A DNA stretch of 64,000 nucleotides from an uncultured Candidatus Saccharibacteria bacterium (GCA_964413715.1 CAYPSN010000004.1:7501-71500); one strand, 5' to 3'; positions 909 to 52,009 are shown, counted from the stretch's first letter. The notes: a model not told the origin generated them from the sequence alone. Numbers and translations are program-made.

Positions 909-1751
909 GTGGGTCCGACGGCGAGCGGAAAGTCCGCATTGGCCATGGAGCTGGCGCAGCAGTTTAATGGCGAGATCATCTGCGCTGATTCACGGACGAT
1001 TTATCGAGGTTTTGACATCGGTACTGCAAAGCCAACGAAGCAGGATCAGCAGCTTGTGTCTCATCATCTGCTGGACATTTGCGAGCCTGGTGAGGAATTT
1101 AGCGTAGCAAGGTTTAAGCAGCTAGCCGAAGAGGCCATGCAAGACATATGGAAACGAGGTAGGGTGGCCTTCTTAGTGGGTGGCAGCGGCATGTACATTG
1201 ATGCCGTTTTGTTTAACTACAGCTTTCGCACTGGCGAGGTGCATGATTCAGAGGACTACAGCCAGCTTAGCCTTGAGGAGCTACAGCGTCTTGTGCAGCA
1301 GCGCTACCCTCAAGGGGCAGAGTCGATTGATCTAAAGAATAGGTTACGACTCGAGCAAATCCTAGAGCGCGGGTTGGCGCATGATAGCGACCGAAGGCAA
1401 CTAGCTTATGATTGTCTTATACTGGGCCTTAATCCGGATAGACTTTTATTAAAGCAAAAAATAGTCGATAGGGTCGACGTCATGTTGAACAACGGATTTA
1501 TTCAAGAGGTAAAAGAGCTTTTGAAACGCTATGGTCGGGATTGTCCCCAGCTCAAAATAATTGGCTACAAACACGCCGTTTCCTACCTGGAAGGTGGGAT
1601 TAGCCTCGAGGAAATGCGCGAACTTTTCGCCCACGATGATTTGGCTCTAGCCAAGCGGCAGGCGACATGGTTTAAGCGCAATCAGGCTATTAATTGGCTT
1701 CACAATATGTCTGAGGCTGCAGTGCTCGTCGACAACTATTTGTCGCGTTAG
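909..1751 (+). CDS. miaA: tRNA dimethylallyltransferase (tRNA isopentenyltransferase). GTG start.
   Basis: N-terminal P-loop 'GPTASGKSALAMELAQQFNGEIICADSRTIYRGFDIGTAKPT' is the MiaA signature. The gene is about 280 aa. Confidence 0.85.
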   Translation: MGPTASGKSALAMELAQQFNGEIICADSRTIYRGFDIGTAKPTKQDQQLVSHHLLDICEPGEEFSVARFKQLAEEAMQDIWKRGRVAFLVGGSGMYIDAVLFNYSFRTGEVHDSEDYSQLSLEELQRLVQQRYPQGAESIDLKNRLRLEQILERGLAHDSDRRQLAYDCLILGLNPDRLLLKQKIVDRVDVMLNNGFIQEVKELLKRYGRDCPQLKIIGYKHAVSYLEGGISLEEMRELFAHDDLALAKRQATWFKRNQAINWLHNMSEAAVLVDNYLSR

Positions 1752-5245: not shown

Positions 5246-5426
5246 TAAACATGTTCTGCGGCTCACGCCCCGAGTGGGTAAGTAACTTTTTCCTGTTAGA
5301 TAGTTACTTTGGGAGCTTTAGATTACCTCGGCTTGTAAAGCCTGAGTGTTGCGAGCACCCACCTGGATATTTCCGGGAAGAGTTAATGCCCTTGCGGAGC
5401 ATGCGGAGCGGATTTATTCCTATAAC

Positions 5427-5981: not shown

Positions 5982-6064
5982 ACATTTACTCGTTACATAA
6001 GTATTATGTCAAAGCATGAGAGTTATGTAAAGTACTTTTTGGTAGATTTTTGTATCTGTTGGAG

Positions 6065-6073
6065 TGATATAAT
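6065..6073 (+). promoter_or_regulatory. Extended -10 promoter (TGaTATAAT) for tRNA-Pro
   Basis: tgatataat at 6065-6073, 17 nt before the mature tRNA 5' end. Confidence 0.45.
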
Positions 6074-6089
6074 GGGGAAGGATCGACTA

Positions 6090-6165
6090 CAGGGTGTGGC
6101 GCAGTAGGTAGCGCGTACGGCTGGGGGCCGTGAGGTCGCAGGTTCAAGTCCTGTCACCCTGACCA
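6090..6165 (+). tRNA. tRNA-Pro, anticodon GGG, CCA encoded
   Basis: Hand-folded 76 nt cloverleaf: acceptor CAGGGTG/CACCCTG, D-stem GCGC/GCGC, anticodon stem TACGG/CCGTG with loop cTGGGgg (U33, G37), T-stem GCAGG/CCTGT, T-loop TTCAAGT, discriminator A, CCA. The minus-strand ORF 6023..6229 ('GLEPAT..') is its translation shadow. Confidence 0.85.
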
Positions 6166-12962: not shown

Positions 12963-13378
12963 AGCTACCAGCCGAAATTAAGGTTTTTTGCGACGGTGGT
13001 TCACGCGGTAATCCAGGACCAGCAGCAGCAGGCGTAGTAATAACTACAACAGATGATAAAGTCTTGCTCGAAGTAAATAAATACTTAGGTATACGTACAA
13101 ATAATTACGCAGAGTATCAAGCGGTTATATTGGCGCTTGAGACAATTTTCGAGCATGGAGTCGAGCAGGCTAATTTTTACCTGGACAGCGAGCTGGTTAC
13201 GAAGCAGCTCAACGGCGAATACCGCGTGAAGCACCCCGACATGCAGCCACTTTACCTTCGGGTGCAAGAGCTTGTGGGCGTGGTGGGGGCTCACAAAGTG
13301 CGTTTTGTCCACGTGCGTAGAGAGTTTAATAAGCTCGCCGATGCACAGGTCAATAAGTGTCTCGACGAGCAGATTTAG
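12959..13378 (+). CDS. rnhA: Ribonuclease HI
   Basis: 'IKVFCDGGSRGNPGPAAAGVVI...NNYAEYQAVILAL' carries the RNase H catalytic D/E motifs. The start is chosen at the ATG overlapping the uppP stop (ATGA). Confidence 0.8.
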   Translation: MKLPAEIKVFCDGGSRGNPGPAAAGVVITTTDDKVLLEVNKYLGIRTNNYAEYQAVILALETIFEHGVEQANFYLDSELVTKQLNGEYRVKHPDMQPLYLRVQELVGVVGAHKVRFVHVRREFNKLADAQVNKCLDEQI

Positions 13379-13381
13379 ACG

Positions 13382-13410
13382 TCGACAAATAGGCCATATT
13401 ATGGTAGAAT
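13382..13410 (+). promoter_or_regulatory. Putative promoter of RNase P RNA: -35 TCGACA, 17 nt spacer, extended -10 TGgTAGAAT
   Basis: tcgaca at 13382-13387; tggtagaat at 13402-13410. Confidence 0.4.
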
Positions 13411-13417
13411 ATTGATC

Positions 13418-13850
13418 TAGCTAGTTAATGTGCGATCGCTCCCTTCCGAGGGAGAGGAAAGTCCGAACAGCATAGAGCAGAGTGGTTGCTAACGGCAACC
13501 GGGGGCAACCCTAGGGAAAGTGCCACAGAGACAATACCGCCCCTCACCATTTTGTATAGTTACTGGTTATAGACTTGTTCTGAGCGTAAGTGTATGAAAT
13601 GGTGAGGGGTAAGGGTGAAAAGAGTGCGGTAAAAGCGCACAGCATGCGTGGGTGACCACGTGTGGAGGTAAACCCCACTTGCTGCAAGACTATGGGCCCA
13701 GCCATTTGGCAGAGCTGCTCGCTCTTTATGGGTTTGTCGCACGATCTGCCTTTACCGGCAGACGCGGGCGTTGTTATGACGCATGAGATAGATGATCGCT
13801 AGCTTCTTTATCGAAGCAAAACAGAATTCGGCTTATACGTTATCTAGCTA
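13418..13850 (+). ncRNA. rnpB: RNase P RNA (bacterial type)
   Basis: 5' P4 strand 'GAGGAAAGTCCGaac' at about 13454-13468. Conserved core 'CATAGAGCAGAGTGGTTGCTAACGGCAACCGGGGGCAACCCTAGGGAAAGTGCCACAGAGACAATACCGCC' (compare E. coli M1 'CAUAGGGCAGGUGCCAGGUAACGCCUGGGGGGGAAACCCACGACCAGUGCAACAGAGAGCAAACCGCC'). 3' P4 strand 'ACAGAATTCGGCTTAT' at 13821-13836 pairs with the 5' strand and leaves the conserved bulged U. No protein ORF is present; the minus-strand ORF 13560..13742 is spurious. Confidence 0.85.
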
Positions 13851-26247: not shown

Positions 26248-26327
26248 AATGATTATTATGGCTGTTTTCGAGGCATCTGCCTAGTCTTTATGACACTAAA
26301 ACACTAGCGTTTTAGCTTAAAATAAGG

Positions 26328-26333
26328 TATAAT
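26328..26333 (+). promoter_or_regulatory. -10 element (TATAAT) positioned 9 nt upstream of the tmRNA 5' end
   Basis: 'aaataaggTATAATtgtgttatGGGGCTG'. Confidence 0.35.
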
Positions 26334-26341
26334 TGTGTTAT

Positions 26342-46016: not shown

Positions 46017-46997
46017 ATGAGAATCTTATCAGGAATACAAGCAACAGGTAAGTTGCATATTGGCAATTATCTTGGCATGGTAAAGCCTTTCGTGGCCATG
46101 CAGGACCAGGGGGAAGCTTTTTATTTCATCCCTAATCTTCATTCGCTCAATGTCCGCCCTGATCCAGCTACTTTACGTCGTGATACCTTGGCAAACGCTG
46201 CTTGGTTCCTAGCGGCTGGCGTAGATCCAAAGAAATCCGTCATCTTCACTCAGTCTGATGTGCCCGCCCATTCAGAGTTATGCTGGATACTGAATAATTT
46301 CGTAACTATTGGTGAGTTAAATCGTATGACCGCCTACAAAGACAAGAGTGTGAAACGAGGCCCAGAAGGGCAGCTTGCCGCTTTGTTTACCTACCCAGTC
46401 CTTATGGCGGCAGATATTATTCTCTATGATGCCGAACTTGTACCGGTAGGAGAGGATCAAAAACAGCACGTCGAGCTGACGCGAGATATCGTAGCTCGCT
46501 TTAATAAGCTATATGGTGACACTTTTGTAGCACCAAAGGCCGTTTTACCATCTGTCGGGGGCCGTATTATGAGTTTGCAGGACCCCACAAGCAAGATGAG
46601 TAAGAGTGACGAAAACCAAAATGGCAATATAATGCTGCTGGATGATGAGAAGACCATTCGGCTTAAGGTAAAACGCGCTGTTACCGACGACAAAAGTGAA
46701 GTGAAGGCTGATTCTAATGGCGGCGCCATAACCAATTTAATAGAGATCTACGCTGGTTTTAGTGGAAAAGACACTGGTCAGATAGAAGAAGAGTTCCGAG
46801 GTAAGGGATACGGTGAATTCAAAGCCGCTTTGGCAGACGTACTCGTAGAAAACCTCGGTGATTTGGCTCGTACTTTTCACGCACTTATGGCTGATGAGGA
46901 CTATTTAATGAAAATCTTGGGCGAGGGAGCAGAAAAAGCTAACCAAGTAGCCCAAGCAAAGCTCAAAATAGTCAAACAAAAGTTAGGTATCTTGTAA
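46017..46997 (+). CDS. trpS: Tryptophan--tRNA ligase
   Basis: 'ILSGIQATGKLHIGNYLG' and 'KMSKS' (SKMSKSDEN), 326 aa. Confidence 0.9.
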   Translation: MRILSGIQATGKLHIGNYLGMVKPFVAMQDQGEAFYFIPNLHSLNVRPDPATLRRDTLANAAWFLAAGVDPKKSVIFTQSDVPAHSELCWILNNFVTIGELNRMTAYKDKSVKRGPEGQLAALFTYPVLMAADIILYDAELVPVGEDQKQHVELTRDIVARFNKLYGDTFVAPKAVLPSVGGRIMSLQDPTSKMSKSDENQNGNIMLLDDEKTIRLKVKRAVTDDKSEVKADSNGGAITNLIEIYAGFSGKDTGQIEEEFRGKGYGEFKAALADVLVENLGDLARTFHALMADEDYLMKILGEGAEKANQVAQAKLKIVKQKLGIL

Positions 46998-47048
46998 AAT
47001 ATACAACACTTACAACAGGTTAGAGGGCCCCAAAAAGCATAAAAAGTA

Positions 47049-47077
47049 TTGACATAAGCATAAGCGTTTGCTATACT
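47049..47077 (+). promoter_or_regulatory. Near-consensus sigma70 promoter: -35 TTGACA, 17 nt spacer, -10 TATACT
   Basis: ttgaca at 47049-47054; tatact at 47072-47077. The predicted TSS at about 47085 opens onto an ORF-free region. Confidence 0.5.
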
Positions 47078-47084
47078 TGTATCA

Positions 47085-47562
47085 ACATAAGTTAGTTCAT
47101 TAAAACAAAAATAAAAACAAAATGAAATCCGCAATACCTCCATAAGGTAGCCCTGATCTCAAAGGGCGCTTTTCAGTAGGGGAAGCCCGGCATAGAAATA
47201 ACCCCCTTATTTCTAGTCGGACTCTCCCTACTGTTCTAGGGTTAGCAAACGCTCGTATGGTTTGCTAGCACACTACCCGCAGGATTAGTCAGCAGATTGA
47301 GTTTGATCACAACCGTGGTGAACTTGGTTTTCTGACTAAACCGTACGGATGGTGGGGAAGCGTTGACCAAATGACAAAAGCAGTGATGCTTGTGTCAAAG
47401 ATAGTTCGGTCTCACTCGCGTTTTTAGCCTCATTGGCTAGAGATGCTTACCGGGCCTCCGCGTGCCAGTTTAGTTCCATAACTTTTTGGGCAGATGCGAT
47501 TAGAGGCCCGTAACCATTGCTATTATCAATATTTCTTAACTTCGCACAATGCGAAGTTTTTT
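47085..47562 (+). ncRNA. Candidate structured non-coding RNA of unknown class, about 480 nt, bounded by a promoter and a terminator
   Basis: No ORF of 60 aa or more on either strand across about 700 nt. Strong nested hairpins, for example cagtagggga...tctccctactg enclosing tagaaataa-ccccc-ttatttcta. The motif 'ggggaagc' occurs twice. The region ends in an intrinsic terminator. Confidence 0.4.
47540..47562 (+). terminator. Rho-independent terminator ending the candidate ncRNA
   Basis: 'cttcgc acaat gcgaag tttttt'. Confidence 0.55.
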
Positions 47563-47778
47563 AGTATAGAAAAATTTTTGAATTATTCATACATTACGTC
47601 GAGTCTAAGGCCTTACATAATGCAGCACATTGTCATGAATATAAATGAATAAAATAGTAGTCCAATAGGCTACTAAACTTAAGGCAAATATAACATGTAT
47701 ACAATTTATTTGCTGCCTTGTTCGATAATGAGTACTGGTATCGTGTTTTTCCACAGGTAGGCTGGGGATAGTCTTACC

Positions 47779-48219
47779 TTGAGAAAACCACCTAAATCTG
47801 CGATAATATCAAGCAATATGCAGTTAATGAATAAGATAAAAAAGGGAATGCTTGGTGCAGGATTACTGGTGGTTAGCGCTGTTTCGACTACCATTGTTTT
47901 GTCATTGCTATTCTTAGCTTCACCTAACTCCATCGGCCCAGCTGGGGTGACCATCTGGTTTGTGTTACTTCTGGCGGCACTCACGTCTAGTTTAATGCTA
48001 TTGCTTTTGGCCAACAAAAAGCGACGCGGCAAACTTATTACGCCGGCTGAATTTAAAGCTACTTTTAAATTGGCCCTGGTTCCAGCTGCGGCTGTGACGC
48101 TAGTATTGGCTCTGAGCAGCTTAGGTTCGCTTGGAGCAGTCGATTTGCTTCTGATTGCCGGTGTCACTTTGGTTGTGGGTGTATATTTCTTTACGACTGA
48201 TCGGAGACAGACACTATGA
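47779..48219 (+). CDS. Small polytopic membrane protein, translationally coupled (ATGA) to pheS
   Basis: Three to four hydrophobic helices ('GLLVVSAVSTTIVLSLLFLA', 'VTIWFVLLLAALTSSLMLLLLA', 'LALVPAAAVTLVLALSSLG', 'LLLIAGVTLVVGVYFF'). The start may be an internal ATG (MQLM or MNKI). The antisense ORF 47706..48167 is judged spurious. Confidence 0.45.
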   Translation: MRKPPKSAIISSNMQLMNKIKKGMLGAGLLVVSAVSTTIVLSLLFLASPNSIGPAGVTIWFVLLLAALTSSLMLLLLANKKRRGKLITPAEFKATFKLALVPAAAVTLVLALSSLGSLGAVDLLLIAGVTLVVGVYFFTTDRRQTL

Positions 48220-49196
48220 AGCCAGCAGATATTATTTCACGAGCTCAGCAGGAGGCGTCGAATGCAAAGCGACAGAACGACCTACAGTTAGTGAAGGCCC
48301 AGTATTTGGGCAAGAAAAGCGTACTACAGGCAGAAATGAAGGCACTAGGCGGTCTCTCGTCTGAAGAGCGCAAGAAGAAGGGGCGAGAGCTCAATCAGCT
48401 TAAGCAAGAGCTGGAAAGGCTTTTTACTGAGCGTGAAAAATCTCTGATTATTGAACTCGATAGCCTACCGCCGATGGACCTTTCGACACCAGGAATCGGA
48501 ACGCAGTATGGCCATGCCCATCCGGTTACACTCGTAATGGAAGAGCTGTACGCAGCTTTTACACGACTTGGTTTTGCGATTGTAGATAGTAATGAGATCG
48601 AAGACGATTGGCATAATTTTGAAGCACTCAATATGCCACCGCATCATCCAGCACGGGATATGCAAGATACTTTTTATATTAAAGACAAGCAGGCAACCAA
48701 TACAATTTTGCCGCGAACTCATACATCTGGTATGCAAGTACGTTTCATGAAAGAAAATAAGCCGCCTTTTAAGATCATTGTGCCGGGTAAAGTTTTTCGT
48801 AACGAAGACGAAGACAAGACTCACTTGTGGTCATTCACACAGGTTGAAGGTCTGGTGGTGGGCGAGGGTGTCTCGGTAGCGCACCTTAAAGGTACGTTAC
48901 TAGCAGTAATGCAGGATCTGCTTGGCGAAGAAACCGAAATTCGCTTGCGACCAAGCTATTTTCCGTACACCGAGCCCTCGATTGAGATAGATGTGAGTTA
49001 CAAAGGCGAGTGGTTGGAGTTACTGGGGGCAGGCATGGTGCACCCTAAGGTGCTGCAGAATGCGGGGATTGATCCGGAGATTTACACTGGCTTTGCTTTT
49101 GGGCTTGGCCCTGAGCGCATTGCCATGGTGAAGTATGGCATAACTGATTTACGGCATTTTTGGCGACCGAATCTGTCCTACCTGGAGCAATTTTAA
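48216..49196 (+). CDS. pheS: Phenylalanine--tRNA ligase alpha subunit
   Basis: Class II motifs: 'FRNE' (motif 2 region), 'RPSYFPYTEPSIEIDV', and 'GAGMVHP...GFAFGLGPERIAM' (motif 3). Confidence 0.9.
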   Translation: MKPADIISRAQQEASNAKRQNDLQLVKAQYLGKKSVLQAEMKALGGLSSEERKKKGRELNQLKQELERLFTEREKSLIIELDSLPPMDLSTPGIGTQYGHAHPVTLVMEELYAAFTRLGFAIVDSNEIEDDWHNFEALNMPPHHPARDMQDTFYIKDKQATNTILPRTHTSGMQVRFMKENKPPFKIIVPGKVFRNEDEDKTHLWSFTQVEGLVVGEGVSVAHLKGTLLAVMQDLLGEETEIRLRPSYFPYTEPSIEIDVSYKGEWLELLGAGMVHPKVLQNAGIDPEIYTGFAFGLGPERIAMVKYGITDLRHFWRPNLSYLEQF

Positions 49197-52009
49197 TGAA
49201 AATATCTGTAAACTCACTTAATTCTTACCTGAAAAACAAGCTTTCAGCTGAACAGATGGTGGAGCGTCTGCTGATGACCGAAGTGGAGGTGGAAGAGATT
49301 ATAACTCCTCATCAGGAGTGGGACGAGCGCATCATTGTGGCGCACGTCGTGACAGTACAGCCGCATCCGGATGCAGACAAGTTACGCTTAGCGCAAGTAG
49401 AAACTGGCAGCGGCAAAGTTGAGGTTGTTTGTGGCGCGCCAAATTTGGCCGAAGGGCAAATGGTGGTGCTGGCGCAAGAAGGTGCAGTTTTGCCAGACGG
49501 TTTAAAAATCAAAGCTAGCAAGCTGCGTGGCGTTATTTCGCACGGCATGCTGTGTTCAGCCAAGGAGCTGGGTATTTCAGACGACCACAACGGTATTCTG
49601 GTTCTGCCAGAAGACTCACCTGTTGGAACAACATTGTGCGACATATGGCAAAAGGGGAATGTCTTGGATATAAAGACGCCTGCAAATAGGTGGGATTACC
49701 TCAGTTTGATCGGTTTGGCTAGGGAAGTCGCAGCCAAAGATAAGGGTAATCAGCTGATTTTGCCTAAATCTAAGCAATTAACATATAAAGACACAGAAAT
49801 TGTAGATGTCAAGGAAAGCGGGGAGTGTAGACGCTTCGTTAGTGTGAAAATGAGGGTAGACAATTCCGTGAAAAGTCCGCAGTGGATTGTGGATAACTTA
49901 GAAGAGAACGGTTTGCGCAGTATTAATCCTGTTGTAGATATTACGAACTTTGTAATGCTCGAAACCGGCCAGCCCTCTCATGCGTATGACGCCAAGAAAA
50001 TCACTGATGGGCTTTGTGTACGCTTTGCCTCCCCTGCCGAAAAACTTACAACATTAGATGACGTAGAACGAACGCTAACCAGTGAGGATCTTGTGATAGC
50101 AGATGGACGTGGTCCAGTGGCACTAGCTGGTGTGATTGGTGGAGCTAACAGCGAAGTCGATACCAGTACAAGCGAAATAATCCTGGAAGTGGCGAATTTT
50201 GATAAAACGCGGGTGCGCAAGGCCGCAATTCGCCATGGGGTACGAACTGAAGCATCGGCTCGATTTGAGCGCTCTCTCCCCTTGCCACTTCCCCTGCAGG
50301 CAGCGGAACGTTTGGTGGATTTATTATGTCAGGTGGCGCAGGCCGAAGTCATTGACTCCCCTGTCGATCAGCTCTATGGTTGGCCCTGGGTACAGCACGT
50401 TGGTTTACGCCTGCGTAAGGCCGAGCGAATATTGGGCGTTAAGTTAGATGAGCGTGAAGTGGTCGATGGCCTCAGTCGACTTGGCTTTGACGTAGAACAC
50501 TTTAGTATTACTAAGGAACTGCGCAAGCATTTGGGAAAACCTTATATCTGGGGTGCGAATTTTAAACAGCATGGAGATACAGGTTTTGACTGCTCTTATC
50601 TGATAGACAGGGTGTATTCGAAAATTGGCGTACGGGTTGGGCACACCGCATTGGGTCAGTATCATCATGGCCGGCCAGTTGAAGTTGGTGATCTGAAGCC
50701 TGGTGATGTAGTGTTTTATGGTGGCAAAATCGAAAATTCAGTAACGGACCACTACTATACGACAGATGATGCCGGTAAGCACACTAAGGTGACATTGCCG
50801 AAGCCACTGGCTGTAGGGCATAACGGAATTTATATAGGTCAAAACAAGGTTATTACCGCTATTCAATACGAGCGAAAGGGTGACGACTGGGTAAAGCGAG
50901 AAAAGCAAGGCGTTTTAGAAGTGCCTCTGAGCGATTTTGTGAACGATCCAACGTATCTTGGCGCACGTCGATACGTGGAGAACTTTAATCATATTCTGGC
51001 AGTAGTGGCACCATGGTGGAGGCTGGACATTCGTAATGAGGAAGATTTGGTGGAAGAAATCGTTAAAATCGTAGGCTATGACGCCATTGCCGCCGAGATC
51101 CCTTCCCTGCCGCCAACAAGCTCACACAAGCATCAACTTTTACCAAGCCTGCAAAATCTTAAGAAGGTTATGATAGCCAGCGGCTTACAAGAAATCGTGA
51201 CATATTCATTCATTAGCCAGGCCGCACTCGATGCACTCCAAGACACACGTGAGCATTTGGAAATAGCCAACCCGCTGAGCAGCGAACAGCAGTTTTTGCG
51301 CCGCAGTATGCTGCCTAGCCACCTAAAGGTTATCCAAGACAACCAGGGTTACAGTAAGCAGTTTGGCTGCTTTGAAATAGCCAGAACGTATCAGCCGACT
51401 CAGGACGGTGCGTTACCACAAGAAGAATGGAAGATAGCAATTTTCGCAGTTGGTAAGGACAGCTTGATGCGCGTAAAGGGCGCAGTTGATCTGCTGGCAC
51501 GCCACACGCAACTTGATTATGATGTGAAGCCGACTGATTTGATTAACTTTGTTGCTGGCCGATCGGCCGAACTAAATATAGAGAAACAGAACATCGGCTT
51601 GATTGGTCAAGTCGGCAAAACTCTATTGGCCACCTATGATATTCGCCATGAAGTGAGTGTGGCCGAAATAATCTTATCGGAGAACATCTTTACTCATTTA
51701 CCTAATGCTGTGGTGGACTTACCACCCTATCAGCTTATTCAGCGCGACATGTCGTTTATTTGTAATCAAGACATTCTATGGCAAGAGGTTGAATCGTTAC
51801 TCAAGCAAGCAGGCAACGTCTGGTCGGTTCAGTATCTGGGAGTATACGAGGATGACAAGCTAGTGCGGGATAAGCGAAAAAACATTACTTGCCGCATGAA
51901 GCTCGATTTAGGCGCCAATCCAACTGCCGAACAGATTCAAGAGGCAATGGGTAAACTGGGTAATAAGCTGGTGCGAGGTTTGCCGGCAGGAAATATTGTA
52001 ATCAACTAG
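49196..52009 (+). CDS. pheT: Phenylalanine--tRNA ligase beta subunit carrying an inserted NlpC/P60 papain-like peptidase domain in the B5 region
   Basis: 'MKISVNSLNSYL' N-terminus (TAATG overlap with pheS). tRNA-binding, B3/4 and B5 ('LSRLGFDVEHF') domains, and the C-terminal catalytic-like and anticodon-binding regions ('WRLDIRNEEDLVEEIVKIVGYD'). Inserted at about 50503-51000: 'KPYIWGANFKQHGDTGFDCSYLIDRVYSKIGVRVGHTALGQY...GDLKPGDVVFYGG...GHNGIYIGQNKVITAI'. Confidence 0.85.
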   Translation: MKISVNSLNSYLKNKLSAEQMVERLLMTEVEVEEIITPHQEWDERIIVAHVVTVQPHPDADKLRLAQVETGSGKVEVVCGAPNLAEGQMVVLAQEGAVLPDGLKIKASKLRGVISHGMLCSAKELGISDDHNGILVLPEDSPVGTTLCDIWQKGNVLDIKTPANRWDYLSLIGLAREVAAKDKGNQLILPKSKQLTYKDTEIVDVKESGECRRFVSVKMRVDNSVKSPQWIVDNLEENGLRSINPVVDITNFVMLETGQPSHAYDAKKITDGLCVRFASPAEKLTTLDDVERTLTSEDLVIADGRGPVALAGVIGGANSEVDTSTSEIILEVANFDKTRVRKAAIRHGVRTEASARFERSLPLPLPLQAAERLVDLLCQVAQAEVIDSPVDQLYGWPWVQHVGLRLRKAERILGVKLDEREVVDGLSRLGFDVEHFSITKELRKHLGKPYIWGANFKQHGDTGFDCSYLIDRVYSKIGVRVGHTALGQYHHGRPVEVGDLKPGDVVFYGGKIENSVTDHYYTTDDAGKHTKVTLPKPLAVGHNGIYIGQNKVITAIQYERKGDDWVKREKQGVLEVPLSDFVNDPTYLGARRYVENFNHILAVVAPWWRLDIRNEEDLVEEIVKIVGYDAIAAEIPSLPPTSSHKHQLLPSLQNLKKVMIASGLQEIVTYSFISQAALDALQDTREHLEIANPLSSEQQFLRRSMLPSHLKVIQDNQGYSKQFGCFEIARTYQPTQDGALPQEEWKIAIFAVGKDSLMRVKGAVDLLARHTQLDYDVKPTDLINFVAGRSAELNIEKQNIGLIGQVGKTLLATYDIRHEVSVAEIILSENIFTHLPNAVVDLPPYQLIQRDMSFICNQDILWQEVESLLKQAGNVWSVQYLGVYEDDKLVRDKRKNITCRMKLDLGANPTAEQIQEAMGKLGNKLVRGLPAGNIVIN

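What the first reader, a model, noticed from the sequence alone, without database searches (positions are those of the whole stretch)
47049..47562. Orphan ~480 nt promoter- and terminator-bounded transcript with strong secondary structure and no ORF (unknown ncRNA)
Seen in sequence: a near-consensus promoter (TTGACA, 17 nt, TATACT at 47049-47077) opens onto about 480 nt lacking any ORF of 60 aa or more on either strand. The region ends in a clean intrinsic terminator (cttcgc-acaat-gcgaag-TTTTTT, 47540-47562). Inside are long nested helices (cagtagggga / tctccctactg enclosing a perfect 9 bp tagaaataa / ttatttcta hairpin with a CCCCC loop) and a twice-repeated 'ggggaagc' motif. It is not a T-box: no AGGGTGGnACCGCG. 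It does not match what I remember of SRP RNA domain IV, and RNase P RNA and tmRNA are accounted for elsewhere in the window. In a compact genome, 700 nt of non-coding DNA with its own promoter and terminator is conspicuous. 6S RNA, SRP RNA in an unusual form, or a novel large structured RNA are candidates.
Basis: partly seen in the sequence, partly recalled or inferred. Interest (0 to 1): 0.65.

Follow-up and report, generated by a model that had tools for sequence, protein, structure and literature searches.

The report
New large structured RNA of Saccharibacteria
This is a real gene for a roughly 480-base, heavily folded non-coding RNA that matches no catalogued RNA family, is conserved across Candidatus Saccharibacteria (ultra-small CPR bacteria), and has an unknown function.

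Summary
Window 47049-47564 (+) has a near-consensus promoter, about 480 nt without a credible ORF, and an intrinsic terminator. It folds far better than shuffles (z = -8.7).

It is not an orphan. I found about 30 distinct homologues in Saccharibacteria (TM7/CPR) MAGs and in soil, rhizosphere and lake metagenomes. All lie between trpS and the pheST operon.

Comparative analysis supports the fold. 94-96% of cells are paired, against 34-56% in slid controls. 36 of 71 pairs show compensatory changes. G-U pairs and covariance-model scores point to the + strand.

The RNA DNA is more conserved (75-87%) than the flanking aaRS genes (69-73%). The spacer after the terminator is about 55%.

Invariant features:
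- a CCCCC hairpin loop
- a GGGAAG-like (RGGAAR) element, with two variant members
- a 3' hairpin followed by CCCGUAAC

Rfam 15 gives no match for the window or for 15 relatives. It is therefore not a T-box, SRP RNA, 6S RNA, OLE, ROOL, GOLLD or raiA. A probable 6S RNA lies elsewhere in the window.

The downstream operon has its own conserved promoter, and neighbouring genes vary in some genomes. This makes it an independent trans-acting RNA rather than a leader.

The function is not shown. My best guess is an abundant RNP scaffold or recognition RNA.

The parts
47049..47077 (+). Promoter: -35 TTGACA, 17-nt spacer containing GCATAAGC, and extended -10 TGcTATACT. The inferred transcription start is about 47084-47085.
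   Evidence: Consensus scan gives 11 of 12 matches with TG. The -35 box and an extended -10 box (TGnTAnnnT) are kept in all subgroups. No other + strand site in the window has TTGACA plus a -10 box.
47085..47173 (+). G-poor 5' leader. It contains the conserved 5' element AGUUAGUUCAUUAAAAC (47090-47106), an A-rich run, and two small group-specific hairpins (47135-47147, which includes ACCUCC, and 47150-47167).
   Evidence: AGUUCRUUNAAA is conserved near the 5' end in all subgroups. Leaders are A-rich in groups A and B and C/U-rich in groups C and D. The hairpins come from the MFE fold only.
47174..47233 (+). P1 domain in three parts. P1 pairs 47174-47182 with 47225-47233. P1a pairs 47187-47191 with 47216-47220. 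P1b pairs 47193-47201 with 47207-47215 and is capped by the invariant CCCCC loop (47202-47206).
   Evidence: In 26 distinct sequences 96% of cells are paired, against 34-56% in slid controls. 15 of 24 pairs show compensatory changes. The C5-UU loop is invariant. Covariance model R1 hits once in the window.
47234..47284 (+). P2: UUCU.GGGU (47234-47242) pairs with ACCC..AGGA (47275-47284). It encloses a variable hairpin at 47243-47267.
   Evidence: RNAalifold consensus of groups A and B. UUCU/AGGA becomes UCCG/CGGA in group B. Support is moderate because the inner hairpin differs between groups.
47285..47339 (+). P3: a long hairpin, UUAGUCAGCAGAUUGAG...CUUGGUUUUCUGACUAA.
   Evidence: Helices 4 and 5 total 17 pairs, and 15 of them show changes on both sides. 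The hairpin is also in the MFE fold.
47340..47360 (+). P4: a small hairpin (ACCGU-ACGG-AUGGU, 47340-47353) followed by the conserved single-stranded GGGGAAG (47354-47360).
   Evidence: GGGAAG is kept in most subgroups; two members differ (AGGAAG in L163, GGGAGGAAAC in L123). In group C the preceding hairpin covaries (CACCC/GGGUG, ACCGC/GCGGU, CUGCCC/GGGCAG). In groups A and B the ACC/GGU pairs never vary, so P4 in the window rests on homology.
47361..47417 (+). P5: a variable central domain. GUUGACC pairs with GGUC, enclosing the hairpins UGACA/UGUCA and AAGCA/UGCUU.
   Evidence: MFE fold and alifold. The sequence aligns poorly between groups, so comparative support is weak.
47418..47446 (+). 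P6: the hairpin GCGUUUUUAGCC-UCAUU-GGCUAGAGAUGC.
   Evidence: Helix 7 has 5 of 7 pairs with compensatory changes. In group C it is homologous to the long-range helix AUCUYUACYC/GGGUAGRGAU, which also covaries.
47451..47519 (+). P7: an irregular 3' hairpin. The lower helix pairs 47451-47456 with 47505-47510. The middle helix pairs 47459-47462 with 47495-47498. A GA bulge sits at 47493-47494. The upper helix UGCC/GGCA pairs 47463-47466 with 47489-47492. The conserved tail UAACCAUUG follows at 47511-47519.
   Evidence: In 20 sequences from all subgroups, 10 of 16 pairs show compensatory changes. See also helices 8-10. CCCGUAAC is conserved in groups A, B and C.
47538..47564 (+). Intrinsic terminator: AACUUCGC-ACA-AUGCGAAGUU followed by a U run.
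   Evidence: Terminator scan. Nearly every complete homologue has a stem plus U run at the equivalent place, with unrelated stem sequences; none was detected in L123/L144. DNA conservation collapses immediately after it.

Best explanation
Window 47085-47564 (+) is an independent gene for a large (about 480 nt) non-coding RNA with several helical domains. It founds an RNA family that Rfam 15 does not contain. I found the family only in Candidatus Saccharibacteria (TM7, Patescibacteria/CPR).

**Shown**
- It has its own near-consensus promoter and its own intrinsic terminator.
- At least seven helices (P1, P1a, P1b, P3, P6, P7 lower and upper) are maintained by compensatory substitutions.
- The + strand is the functional strand.
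- The DNA is under stronger purifying selection than the neighbouring aminoacyl-tRNA synthetase genes.
- A few single-stranded elements are invariant or nearly so: the CCCCC(UU) loop closing P1b (invariant), GGGAAG after P4, CCCGUAAC after P7, and AGUUCRUUNAAA near the 5' end.

**Inferred**
- It is transcribed at high level and acts in trans.
- It most likely works as the RNA scaffold or recognition subunit of a ribonucleoprotein.
- The conserved helices would hold the invariant C5 loop and junction nucleotides in a fixed geometry for a protein partner, or for a G-rich RNA partner.
- It is not a leader of the pheST operon.

**Confidence by layer**
- That it is a real, conserved, independently transcribed structured ncRNA of a new family: about 0.9.
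- That its mode of action is an RNP scaffold rather than base-pairing regulator, ribozyme or RNA-only assembly: about 0.4.
For: **Boundaries**
- Promoter and terminator are confirmed.
- Conservation starts at the promoter and ends at the terminator.

**Fold**
- z = -8.67 against shuffles.

**Family**
- About 30 distinct homologues were found through TrpS-neighbour contigs and one metagenome pattern scan.
- The flanking TrpS proteins are 50-80% identical to the window's.
- The taxon is Saccharibacteria (and the title of L021).

**Covariation**
- 94% of cells are paired against 40-47% in slid controls. 36 of 71 pairs have double changes, and 0 of 500 shuffles reach this.
- P1 domain: 96% paired, 15 of 24 pairs compensatory.
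- P7: 10 of 16 pairs compensatory across all subgroups.

**Strand**
- Many conserved G-U pairs.
- Model R1 scores 75 bits on + and 42 bits on -.

**Selection**
- RNA identity is 87% and 75%. trpS is 69-70%, pheS 71-73% and the spacer 55%.

**Independence**
- A conserved extended -10 promoter (TGCGATAAT-like) lies between the RNA terminator and the next gene in all subgroups.
- In L128 the next gene is purD-like. In L150 an ORF and purD separate the RNA from the TM-pheS genes. In L123 and L134 other genes separate it from trpS.

**Specificity**
- R1 finds nothing in 78 TrpS loci of non-CPR bacteria.
- Nothing of this kind is found in viral contigs.

**No known family**
- Rfam 15 gives no match for the window or for 15 relatives.
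Against: - There is no expression data. Transcription, abundance and the exact ends are inferred from sequence signals only.
- No partner protein or target has been identified.
- The strict position between trpS and pheST could hint at a functional link with aminoacyl-tRNA synthetases that I could not test. It may equally reflect the generally conserved gene order of this clade.
- The central domain (P2a, P5) aligns poorly between subgroups, so part of the model for the window rests on energy minimisation alone.
- The literature and Rfam checks are limited. The family could have been described in a source I could not search.
Confidence: 0.6

Rival explanations
1. It is a base-pairing regulatory RNA. 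The invariant C5 hairpin loop, together with the C/U-rich or ACCUCC-containing leader, pairs with G-rich sequences of mRNAs such as Shine-Dalgarno regions. This is how the C-rich-loop sRNAs RsaE/RoxS of Firmicutes work.
For: - The unpaired CCCCC loop is invariant.
- Many members carry CCUCC or CUCCU in a G-poor, probably unstructured 5' leader.
- It has its own promoter and terminator.
Against: - At 370-550 nt with seven or more covarying helices it is far larger and more elaborate than known seed-pairing sRNAs.
- Shine-Dalgarno use in the window is weak, and AAGGGG(G) is not enriched at gene starts.
- Group B leaders lack an anti-SD-like motif.
- There is no Rfam match to RsaE or other sRNAs.
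Confidence: 0.15
2. It is a ribozyme or a self-assembling RNA-only particle, as recently shown for the ornate RNAs ROOL and GOLLD. In that case the conserved junction nucleotides would be catalytic or would form inter-subunit contacts.
For: - Its size and structural complexity, with a handful of invariant unpaired nucleotides, is the pattern seen in ribozymes and ornate RNAs.
- Background on ROOL, GOLLD and OLE oligomers: PMC12286853 (listed).
Against: - There is no match to any ribozyme or ornate-RNA model in Rfam.
- It sits in a housekeeping chromosomal context, not the phage or mobile-element context typical of ROOL and GOLLD.
- No processing site or substrate is evident.
Confidence: 0.12
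3. It is a cis-acting leader of the downstream TM-pheS-pheT operon, acting as a T-box-like, riboswitch-like or protein-binding attenuator. The terminator at 47538-47564 would be its expression platform.
For: - It always lies upstream of pheST on the same strand.
- It ends in an intrinsic terminator.
- T-box-like RNAs exist in this clade: there is a weak T-box hit in L004 at 1566-1761.
Against: - There is no T-box hit here even at E <= 10.
- Terminator stems differ freely between relatives. A non-conserved linker of about 20 nt separates them from the conserved core, and no conserved alternative pairing is visible.
- A conserved extended -10 promoter lies between the terminator and the TM gene.
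- 80-250 nt of unconserved spacer follows the terminator.
- In L128 and L150 other genes (purD) follow the RNA.
Confidence: 0.07
4. It is a highly divergent version of a universal housekeeping RNA: SRP (4.5S/scRNA) RNA or a second 6S-type RNA that binds RNA polymerase.
For: - It has a strong promoter and a housekeeping neighbourhood.
- No SRP RNA is detected in the 64 kb window, whereas RNase P RNA, tmRNA and a probable 6S RNA are.
Against: - No SRP or 6S model hits this locus or any of 15 homologues, even at permissive E-values.
- The universal helix-8 motif GGUCCGGAAGGAAGCAGC is absent with up to 3 mismatches. No conserved GNRA-capped helix 8 is seen.
- The fold is multi-branched, not the 6S rod with a central bubble.
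- A 64 kb window is only about 6% of the genome, so SRP RNA being absent from it means little.
Confidence: 0.04

Closest known systems
OLE RNA (Rfam RF01071) with its membrane partner OapA
   Same: Both are large, intricately folded, lineage-restricted bacterial ncRNAs with their own transcription signals. Both are encoded just upstream of a small protein with several transmembrane segments. Neither has a fully settled molecular function.
   Different: - There is no sequence or structure match in Rfam.
- OLE occurs in extremophilic and anaerobic Firmicutes, and this RNA in Saccharibacteria.
- Here the small membrane gene (no Pfam match; four hydrophobic segments by eye) overlaps pheS by 4 nt and stays with pheS when the RNA is separated from it (L150). 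A partnership is therefore not supported.
raiA motif RNA and other orphan structured ncRNAs found by comparative genomics (Weinberg et al. 2017 class)
   Same: Each is an independent promoter-to-terminator ncRNA gene with strong covariation and a preferred position next to translation-related genes. Function is unknown.
   Different: - There is no Rfam hit.
- This RNA is roughly twice the size, at 370-550 nt.
- The phylum, the architecture and the invariant nucleotides (C5 loop, GGGAAG, CCCGUAAC) all differ.
RsaE/RoxS-type sRNAs with C-rich loops
   Same: Both have an invariant unpaired C-run presented on a hairpin loop. Both are standalone genes with an intrinsic terminator.
   Different: - Those sRNAs are about 100 nt with two or three C-rich regions and a simple fold.
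- This RNA has one invariant C5 loop embedded in a multi-domain structure of about 480 nt.
- No G-rich target class is evident.
T-box leader RNAs (RF00230)
   Same: Both are structured RNAs of a few hundred nucleotides located upstream of an aminoacyl-tRNA synthetase operon and ending in an intrinsic terminator.
   Different: - There is no T-box sequence, no Stem I or specifier features, and no antiterminator alternative.
- There is no Rfam hit.
- The downstream operon has its own promoter, and the downstream genes vary.
Universal housekeeping RNAs (SRP RNA, 6S RNA, RNase P RNA, tmRNA)
   Same: Like them, it has a strong promoter, sits in a core-genome position in a reduced genome, and is conserved across a whole lineage.
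   Different: - RNase P RNA, tmRNA and probably 6S RNA are encoded elsewhere in the window.
- The defining motifs of SRP RNA are absent.

Membership tests
T-box leader (RF00230) | Match to the T-box covariance model, including the conserved T-box sequence (AGGGUGGNACCGCG) in an antiterminator bulge | tested here: not met
   There is no T-box hit at 46900-47850 even at E <= 10, and none at the RNA locus in 15 relatives. As a positive control, a weak T-box hit was reported elsewhere in L004.
T-box leader (RF00230) | Terminator/antiterminator alternative pairing that directly controls the downstream aaRS gene | tested here: not met
   Terminator stems are not conserved and are separated from the core by an unconserved linker. 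The downstream operon has its own conserved extended -10 promoter. In L128 and L150, purD follows the RNA.
SRP RNA (RF00169 / RF01854) | Helix 8 (domain IV) with a GNRA tetraloop and the conserved symmetric-loop sequence ...GGUCCGGAAGGAAGCAGC... | tested here: not met
   No SRP model hit appears in the window at E <= 0.5, or in the region at E <= 10. The motif is absent with up to 3 mismatches. There is no hit in relatives.
SRP RNA (RF00169 / RF01854) | Being the only SRP RNA of the genome, that is, no canonical ffs elsewhere | not testable with these tools
6S RNA (RF00013) | A rod-like RNA of about 180 nt with a large central bubble, matching the 6S model | tested here: not met
   There is no 6S hit at this locus. 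The fold is multi-branched and 2.5 times too long. A separate 6S-like match (41.8 bits against a gathering score of 46.4) with its own extended -10 promoter lies at 5250-5413.
Known large ornate RNAs (OLE RF01071, ROOL, GOLLD, raiA, HEARO) | Match to the family covariance model | tested here: not met
   cmscan against all 4227 Rfam 15 models returned only chance-level hits (E of about 3-6, far below the gathering scores) in the region. Nothing was returned for the homologues.
OLE-like RNP (works-like comparison) | Co-inheritance of the RNA with an adjacent dedicated membrane protein gene | tested here: not met
   The small membrane gene stays fused to pheS, not to the RNA, when insertions occur (L150, L123, L134). 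It has no Pfam match.
New Saccharibacteria RNA family (defined here) | P1 three-part stem with a C5 loop, a GGGAAG-type (RGGAAR) element, and a P7 hairpin (followed by CCCGUAAC in groups A-C), all between a promoter and a terminator | tested here: met
   The window carries all the elements. R1 scores it at 75 bits, E = 5e-15. It aligns with all subgroups.

The most novel reading that the evidence does not exclude
Candidatus Saccharibacteria carry an additional lineage-wide housekeeping RNA of about 400-550 nt, driven by the strongest promoter in the region. It would be the RNA subunit of an RNP that has not yet been recognised, or a ribozyme. That would make it a new functional class of large structured RNA, specific to a major branch of the Candidate Phyla Radiation.
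Probability: 0.35. Interest if true: 0.85.

Novelty: categorically new. Interest (0 to 1): 0.72.

Why it matters
Large, intricately folded bacterial RNAs of unknown function are rare. OLE, GOLLD, ROOL, raiA and HEARO are the main examples, and each has led to unexpected biology. None has been reported for the Candidate Phyla Radiation. A preprint on the TM7x transcriptome states that there are no validated small RNAs there.

In genomes of about 1 Mb that have shed most metabolism, this RNA of 370-550 nt is more conserved than neighbouring essential aaRS genes, and it has a consensus promoter. It is therefore very likely important for the cell.

Saccharibacteria are now culturable and genetically tractable. 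If homologues exist in cultured strains, the function could be tested directly.

The family also gives a new, well-supported alignment for RNA structure work such as cryo-EM, and a phylogenetic marker for Saccharibacteria.

Tried and rejected
1. **Rfam identification.** I ran a gathering-score scan of the whole window and E-value scans of the region, the window and 15 homologous loci. They returned only chance-level hits. A mir-5881 hit in L097 (E about 1e-7 to 1e-9) matches both strands and reflects a generic perfect hairpin.
2. **tRNA or tmRNA-like element.** ARAGORN found none.
3. **SRP RNA.** A motif search found none.
4. **Genome-contig scan with a TrpS alignment.** These were useful only as negative controls and for L004 and L021.
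5. **Anti-Shine-Dalgarno mimic idea.** SD use is weak and AAGGGG(G) is not associated with gene starts. Not supported.
6. **CsrA sponge idea.** The idea came from AUACGGAUGGU resembling the CsrA SELEX site. GGA is not conserved in group B, so I dropped it.
7. **Guanidine-II-like ACGG tetraloop in P4.** It is not conserved in group B, so I dropped it.
8. **Pseudoknot between the C5 loop and GGGAAG.** The loop is invariant, so covariation cannot test it. L163 has AGGAGGAAG without a G-run, which argues weakly against it.
9. **Long-range pairing of the 5' AGUUCG with the sequence after GGGAAG in group C, and an ACUGUUC/GGAUGGU helix in groups A and B.** Both overlap better-supported helices (P1 and P4). 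Left unresolved.
10. **Partnership with the adjacent membrane protein, as in OLE/OapA.** Rejected on gene order in L150, L123 and L134.
11. **Phage origin.** Viral contigs hold only an unrelated 71-nt coding match.
12. **Literature.** Five full-text searches and four papers checked for ncRNA terms. None described this RNA.

Full report
**1. The observation**

- The consensus scan finds TTGACA-17-TATACT at 47049-47077, matching 11 of 12 positions with a TG extension. It also finds a 9-bp stem plus T run at 47538-47558.
- No other + strand site in the 64 kb window combines a TTGACA -35 box with a -10 box. The RNase P, tmRNA, tRNA and 6S-like genes have only extended -10 boxes.
- The 478-nt interval folds to -177.3 kcal/mol. 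Shuffles give -123 +/- 6.3, so z = -8.67. The reverse strand gives z = -7.96.
- ORFs inside the body are 52 aa or shorter. An 80-aa mechanical ORF on the minus strand (46901-47143) overlaps the first 59 nt.
- The flanking genes on the same strand are RmuC and trpS (46017-46997) upstream. Downstream lie a small membrane protein (47818-48219, 133 aa; no Pfam match, four hydrophobic segments by eye), pheS and pheT.

**2. Known families are excluded**

- Rfam 15 at gathering thresholds finds only RNase P RNA, tmRNA and one tRNA in the window.
- A permissive scan of 46900-47850 gives only chance-level hits, with E of about 3-6 and scores far below the gathering values. None is to T-box, SRP, 6S, OLE, ROOL, GOLLD, raiA or HEARO.
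- A permissive scan of the whole window adds one sub-threshold 6S match at 5250-5413 (41.8 bits against 46.4, E = 5e-5). An extended -10 box, TGTGTTATAAT, sits just upstream of it. 6S RNA is therefore probably encoded elsewhere.
- The universal SRP helix-8 sequence is absent from the window with up to 3 mismatches.
- ARAGORN finds no tRNA-like gene.
- Fifteen homologous loci also give no Rfam hit at the RNA. A mir-5881 hit in L097 matches both strands and is a generic hairpin artefact.

**3. It is a conserved family**

- The window's TrpS protein has relatives at 50-80% identity in MAGs and metagenomes. One related cluster is named [Candidatus Saccharibacteria bacterium], and locus L021 carries the same name in its title.
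- Contigs encoding these TrpS proteins keep the order RmuC-trpS-gap-TM-pheS-pheT. The non-coding gap is 530-1400 nt.
- Aligning the gaps shows conservation that starts at the promoter and stops at the terminator.
- A degenerate pattern for the P1 domain, scanned once over the metagenome collection, returned 65 loci. 22 are true members from soil, rhizosphere, peat and lake samples. The other 43 are an unrelated coding match of about 71 nt from human-gut contigs.
- In every member whose flanks are held, trpS lies upstream and pheST downstream on the same strand.
- In total there are about 30 distinct sequences. Inferred transcripts are 370-550 nt.
- The members fall into four subgroups:
  - A: the window, L084, L087, L097, L146, L165, L021.
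  - B: lake and sludge types such as L093, L095, L126, L128.
  - C: soil types such as L098, L107, L163.
  - D: short forms L004, L090, L121, L164.

**4. Structure and selection**

- RNAalifold on 13 A and B sequences predicts 73 pairs, and 36 have compensatory changes.
- Pair counting gives 94.0% of cells paired, against 40-47% when partners are slid by 1-3 columns. The covariation score is 0.375 against 0.09-0.12, and 0 of 500 shuffles reach the observed values.
- The P1 domain in 26 distinct sequences from all subgroups is 96% paired, with 15 of 24 pairs compensatory. One example is GUAGGG/CCCUAC becoming GUAAGG/CCUUAC in L165.
- The 3' hairpin P7 in 20 sequences has 10 of 16 pairs compensatory.
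- Helix P6 is a local hairpin in the window (47418-47446). In group C it corresponds to a long-range helix, AUCUYUACYC/GGGUAGRGAU, which also covaries.
- Invariant or nearly invariant unpaired elements:
  - the CCCCC(UU) loop of P1b
  - GGGAAG after P4 (AGGAAG in L163, GGGAGGAAAC in L123)
  - the loop start AAUU and a GAU bulge in P7
  - CCCGUAAC after P7
  - AGUUCRUUNAAA near the 5' end
- Many conserved G-U pairs identify the + strand. So does the covariance model of the P1 domain, which scores 75 bits on + and 42 bits on -.
- At the DNA level the promoter plus RNA is 87% (L084) and 75% (L087) identical to the window. trpS is 69-70%, pheS 71-73%, and the spacer after the terminator 55%.

**5. 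Independent gene, not a leader**

- Nearly every complete member ends in a stem plus U run (none was detected in L123/L144). The stem sequences are unrelated between members, and an unconserved linker separates them from the core. No conserved antiterminator alternative is apparent.
- Between the terminator and the membrane-protein gene, all subgroups keep an extended -10 box: TGCGATAAT, TGGGATAAT or TGAGATAAT (at 47779-47807). The pheST operon therefore has its own promoter.
- Gene order is not rigid:
  - In L128, purD follows the RNA.
  - In L150, an ORF and purD lie between the RNA and TM-pheS.
  - In L123 and L134, other genes separate trpS from the RNA.
- In these cases the membrane gene stays with pheS. 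This argues against an RNA-membrane protein pairing of the OLE/OapA type.
- The P1 model finds a single copy in the window. It finds copies in the two CPR loci of the genome scan, and none in 78 TrpS loci from other phyla. Viral contigs hold none.

**6. How it most likely works**

Shown:
- a discrete transcription unit
- a complex fold preserved by selection
- a few invariant exposed nucleotides
- lineage-wide conservation in reduced genomes

Inferred:
- high expression, from the consensus promoter
- action in trans

My preferred reading is an abundant RNA that serves as scaffold or recognition subunit of an RNP. The C5 loop and junction nucleotides would be the binding surface. I give this about 0.4 among mechanisms.

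The rivals are:
- a base-pairing regulator acting through the C-rich loop and leader, 0.15. Size, complexity and the lack of G-rich target sites argue against it.
- a ribozyme or RNA-only assembly, 0.12
- a cis leader of pheST, 0.07
- a divergent SRP or 6S RNA, 0.04

**7. Novelty**

- No Rfam 15 family matches.
- Five full-text literature searches and four checked papers gave no description.
- A preprint on the TM7x transcriptome states that there are no validated small RNAs in that organism.
- I therefore rate it as a new family that cannot be placed in any known functional kind.
- One caveat applies: the search of the literature and of non-Rfam motif collections is incomplete.

Noticed in passing
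window 5250-5413 (+): A probable 6S (SsrS) RNA. The Rfam RF00013 match scores 41.8 bits, just under the gathering score of 46.4 (E = 4.7e-5). An extended -10 box, TGTGTTATAAT, lies immediately upstream.
   Followed up: partly
window 49160-52009 (+), PheT residues ~459-608: The phenylalanyl-tRNA synthetase beta subunit carries an inserted NlpC/P60 (papain-like peptidase) domain between the B3_4 and B5 domains. Most relatives with the RNA have the same insert; it is not listed for L163. This is an unusual fusion for an aaRS.
   Followed up: partly
window 47818-48219 (+): A conserved small membrane protein of 133 aa with four hydrophobic segments by eye, carrying the motif GPxGVTxWF. It has no Pfam match. 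Its stop overlaps the pheS start by 4 nt, and it stays with pheS in all relatives.
   Followed up: partly
window 47055-47066; equivalent promoter spacers in L004, L090, L164, L021: The promoter spacer holds the octamer GCATAAGC in groups A and B. In group D it holds the reverse complement GCTTATGC at the same place. This may be a binding site for a regulator.
   Followed up: no
window 6000-6090, 13340-13420, 26260-26340: The tRNA, RNase P RNA and tmRNA genes are preceded only by extended -10 boxes without a recognisable -35 box. Among the stable-RNA genes in this window, only the RNA studied here has a full -35/-10 consensus.
   Followed up: partly
L004 1566-1761 (+): A weak T-box leader match (41 bits, E = 5.5e-6, below the gathering score of 93) lies about 1.2 kb upstream of trpS in a related genome. 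T-box-like regulation may therefore exist in this clade.
   Followed up: no
L150 about 1590-1634 (+): The terminator stem of this homologue (CCACUUUACUG / CAGUAGGGUGG) closely resembles the two strands of its own P1 helix. It may be a local duplication.
   Followed up: no
L099-L161 (43 loci) and L166-L187: The search pattern also hit one recurring 70-71-nt stretch (CAGTAGGGATCTCATCC...CCCCCTTGTTTTTGG...CCTAC) in human-gut metagenome contigs and IMG/VR viral contigs. It has no hairpin potential and is unrelated to the RNA. It is probably a gene of a common gut phage.
   Followed up: no
L163 1973-2416 (-): An IS200/IS605-type Y1 transposase gene and a MazE/PIN toxin-antitoxin pair lie a few kb upstream of RmuC in one complete relative genome. 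They are absent from the window's equivalent region.
   Followed up: no
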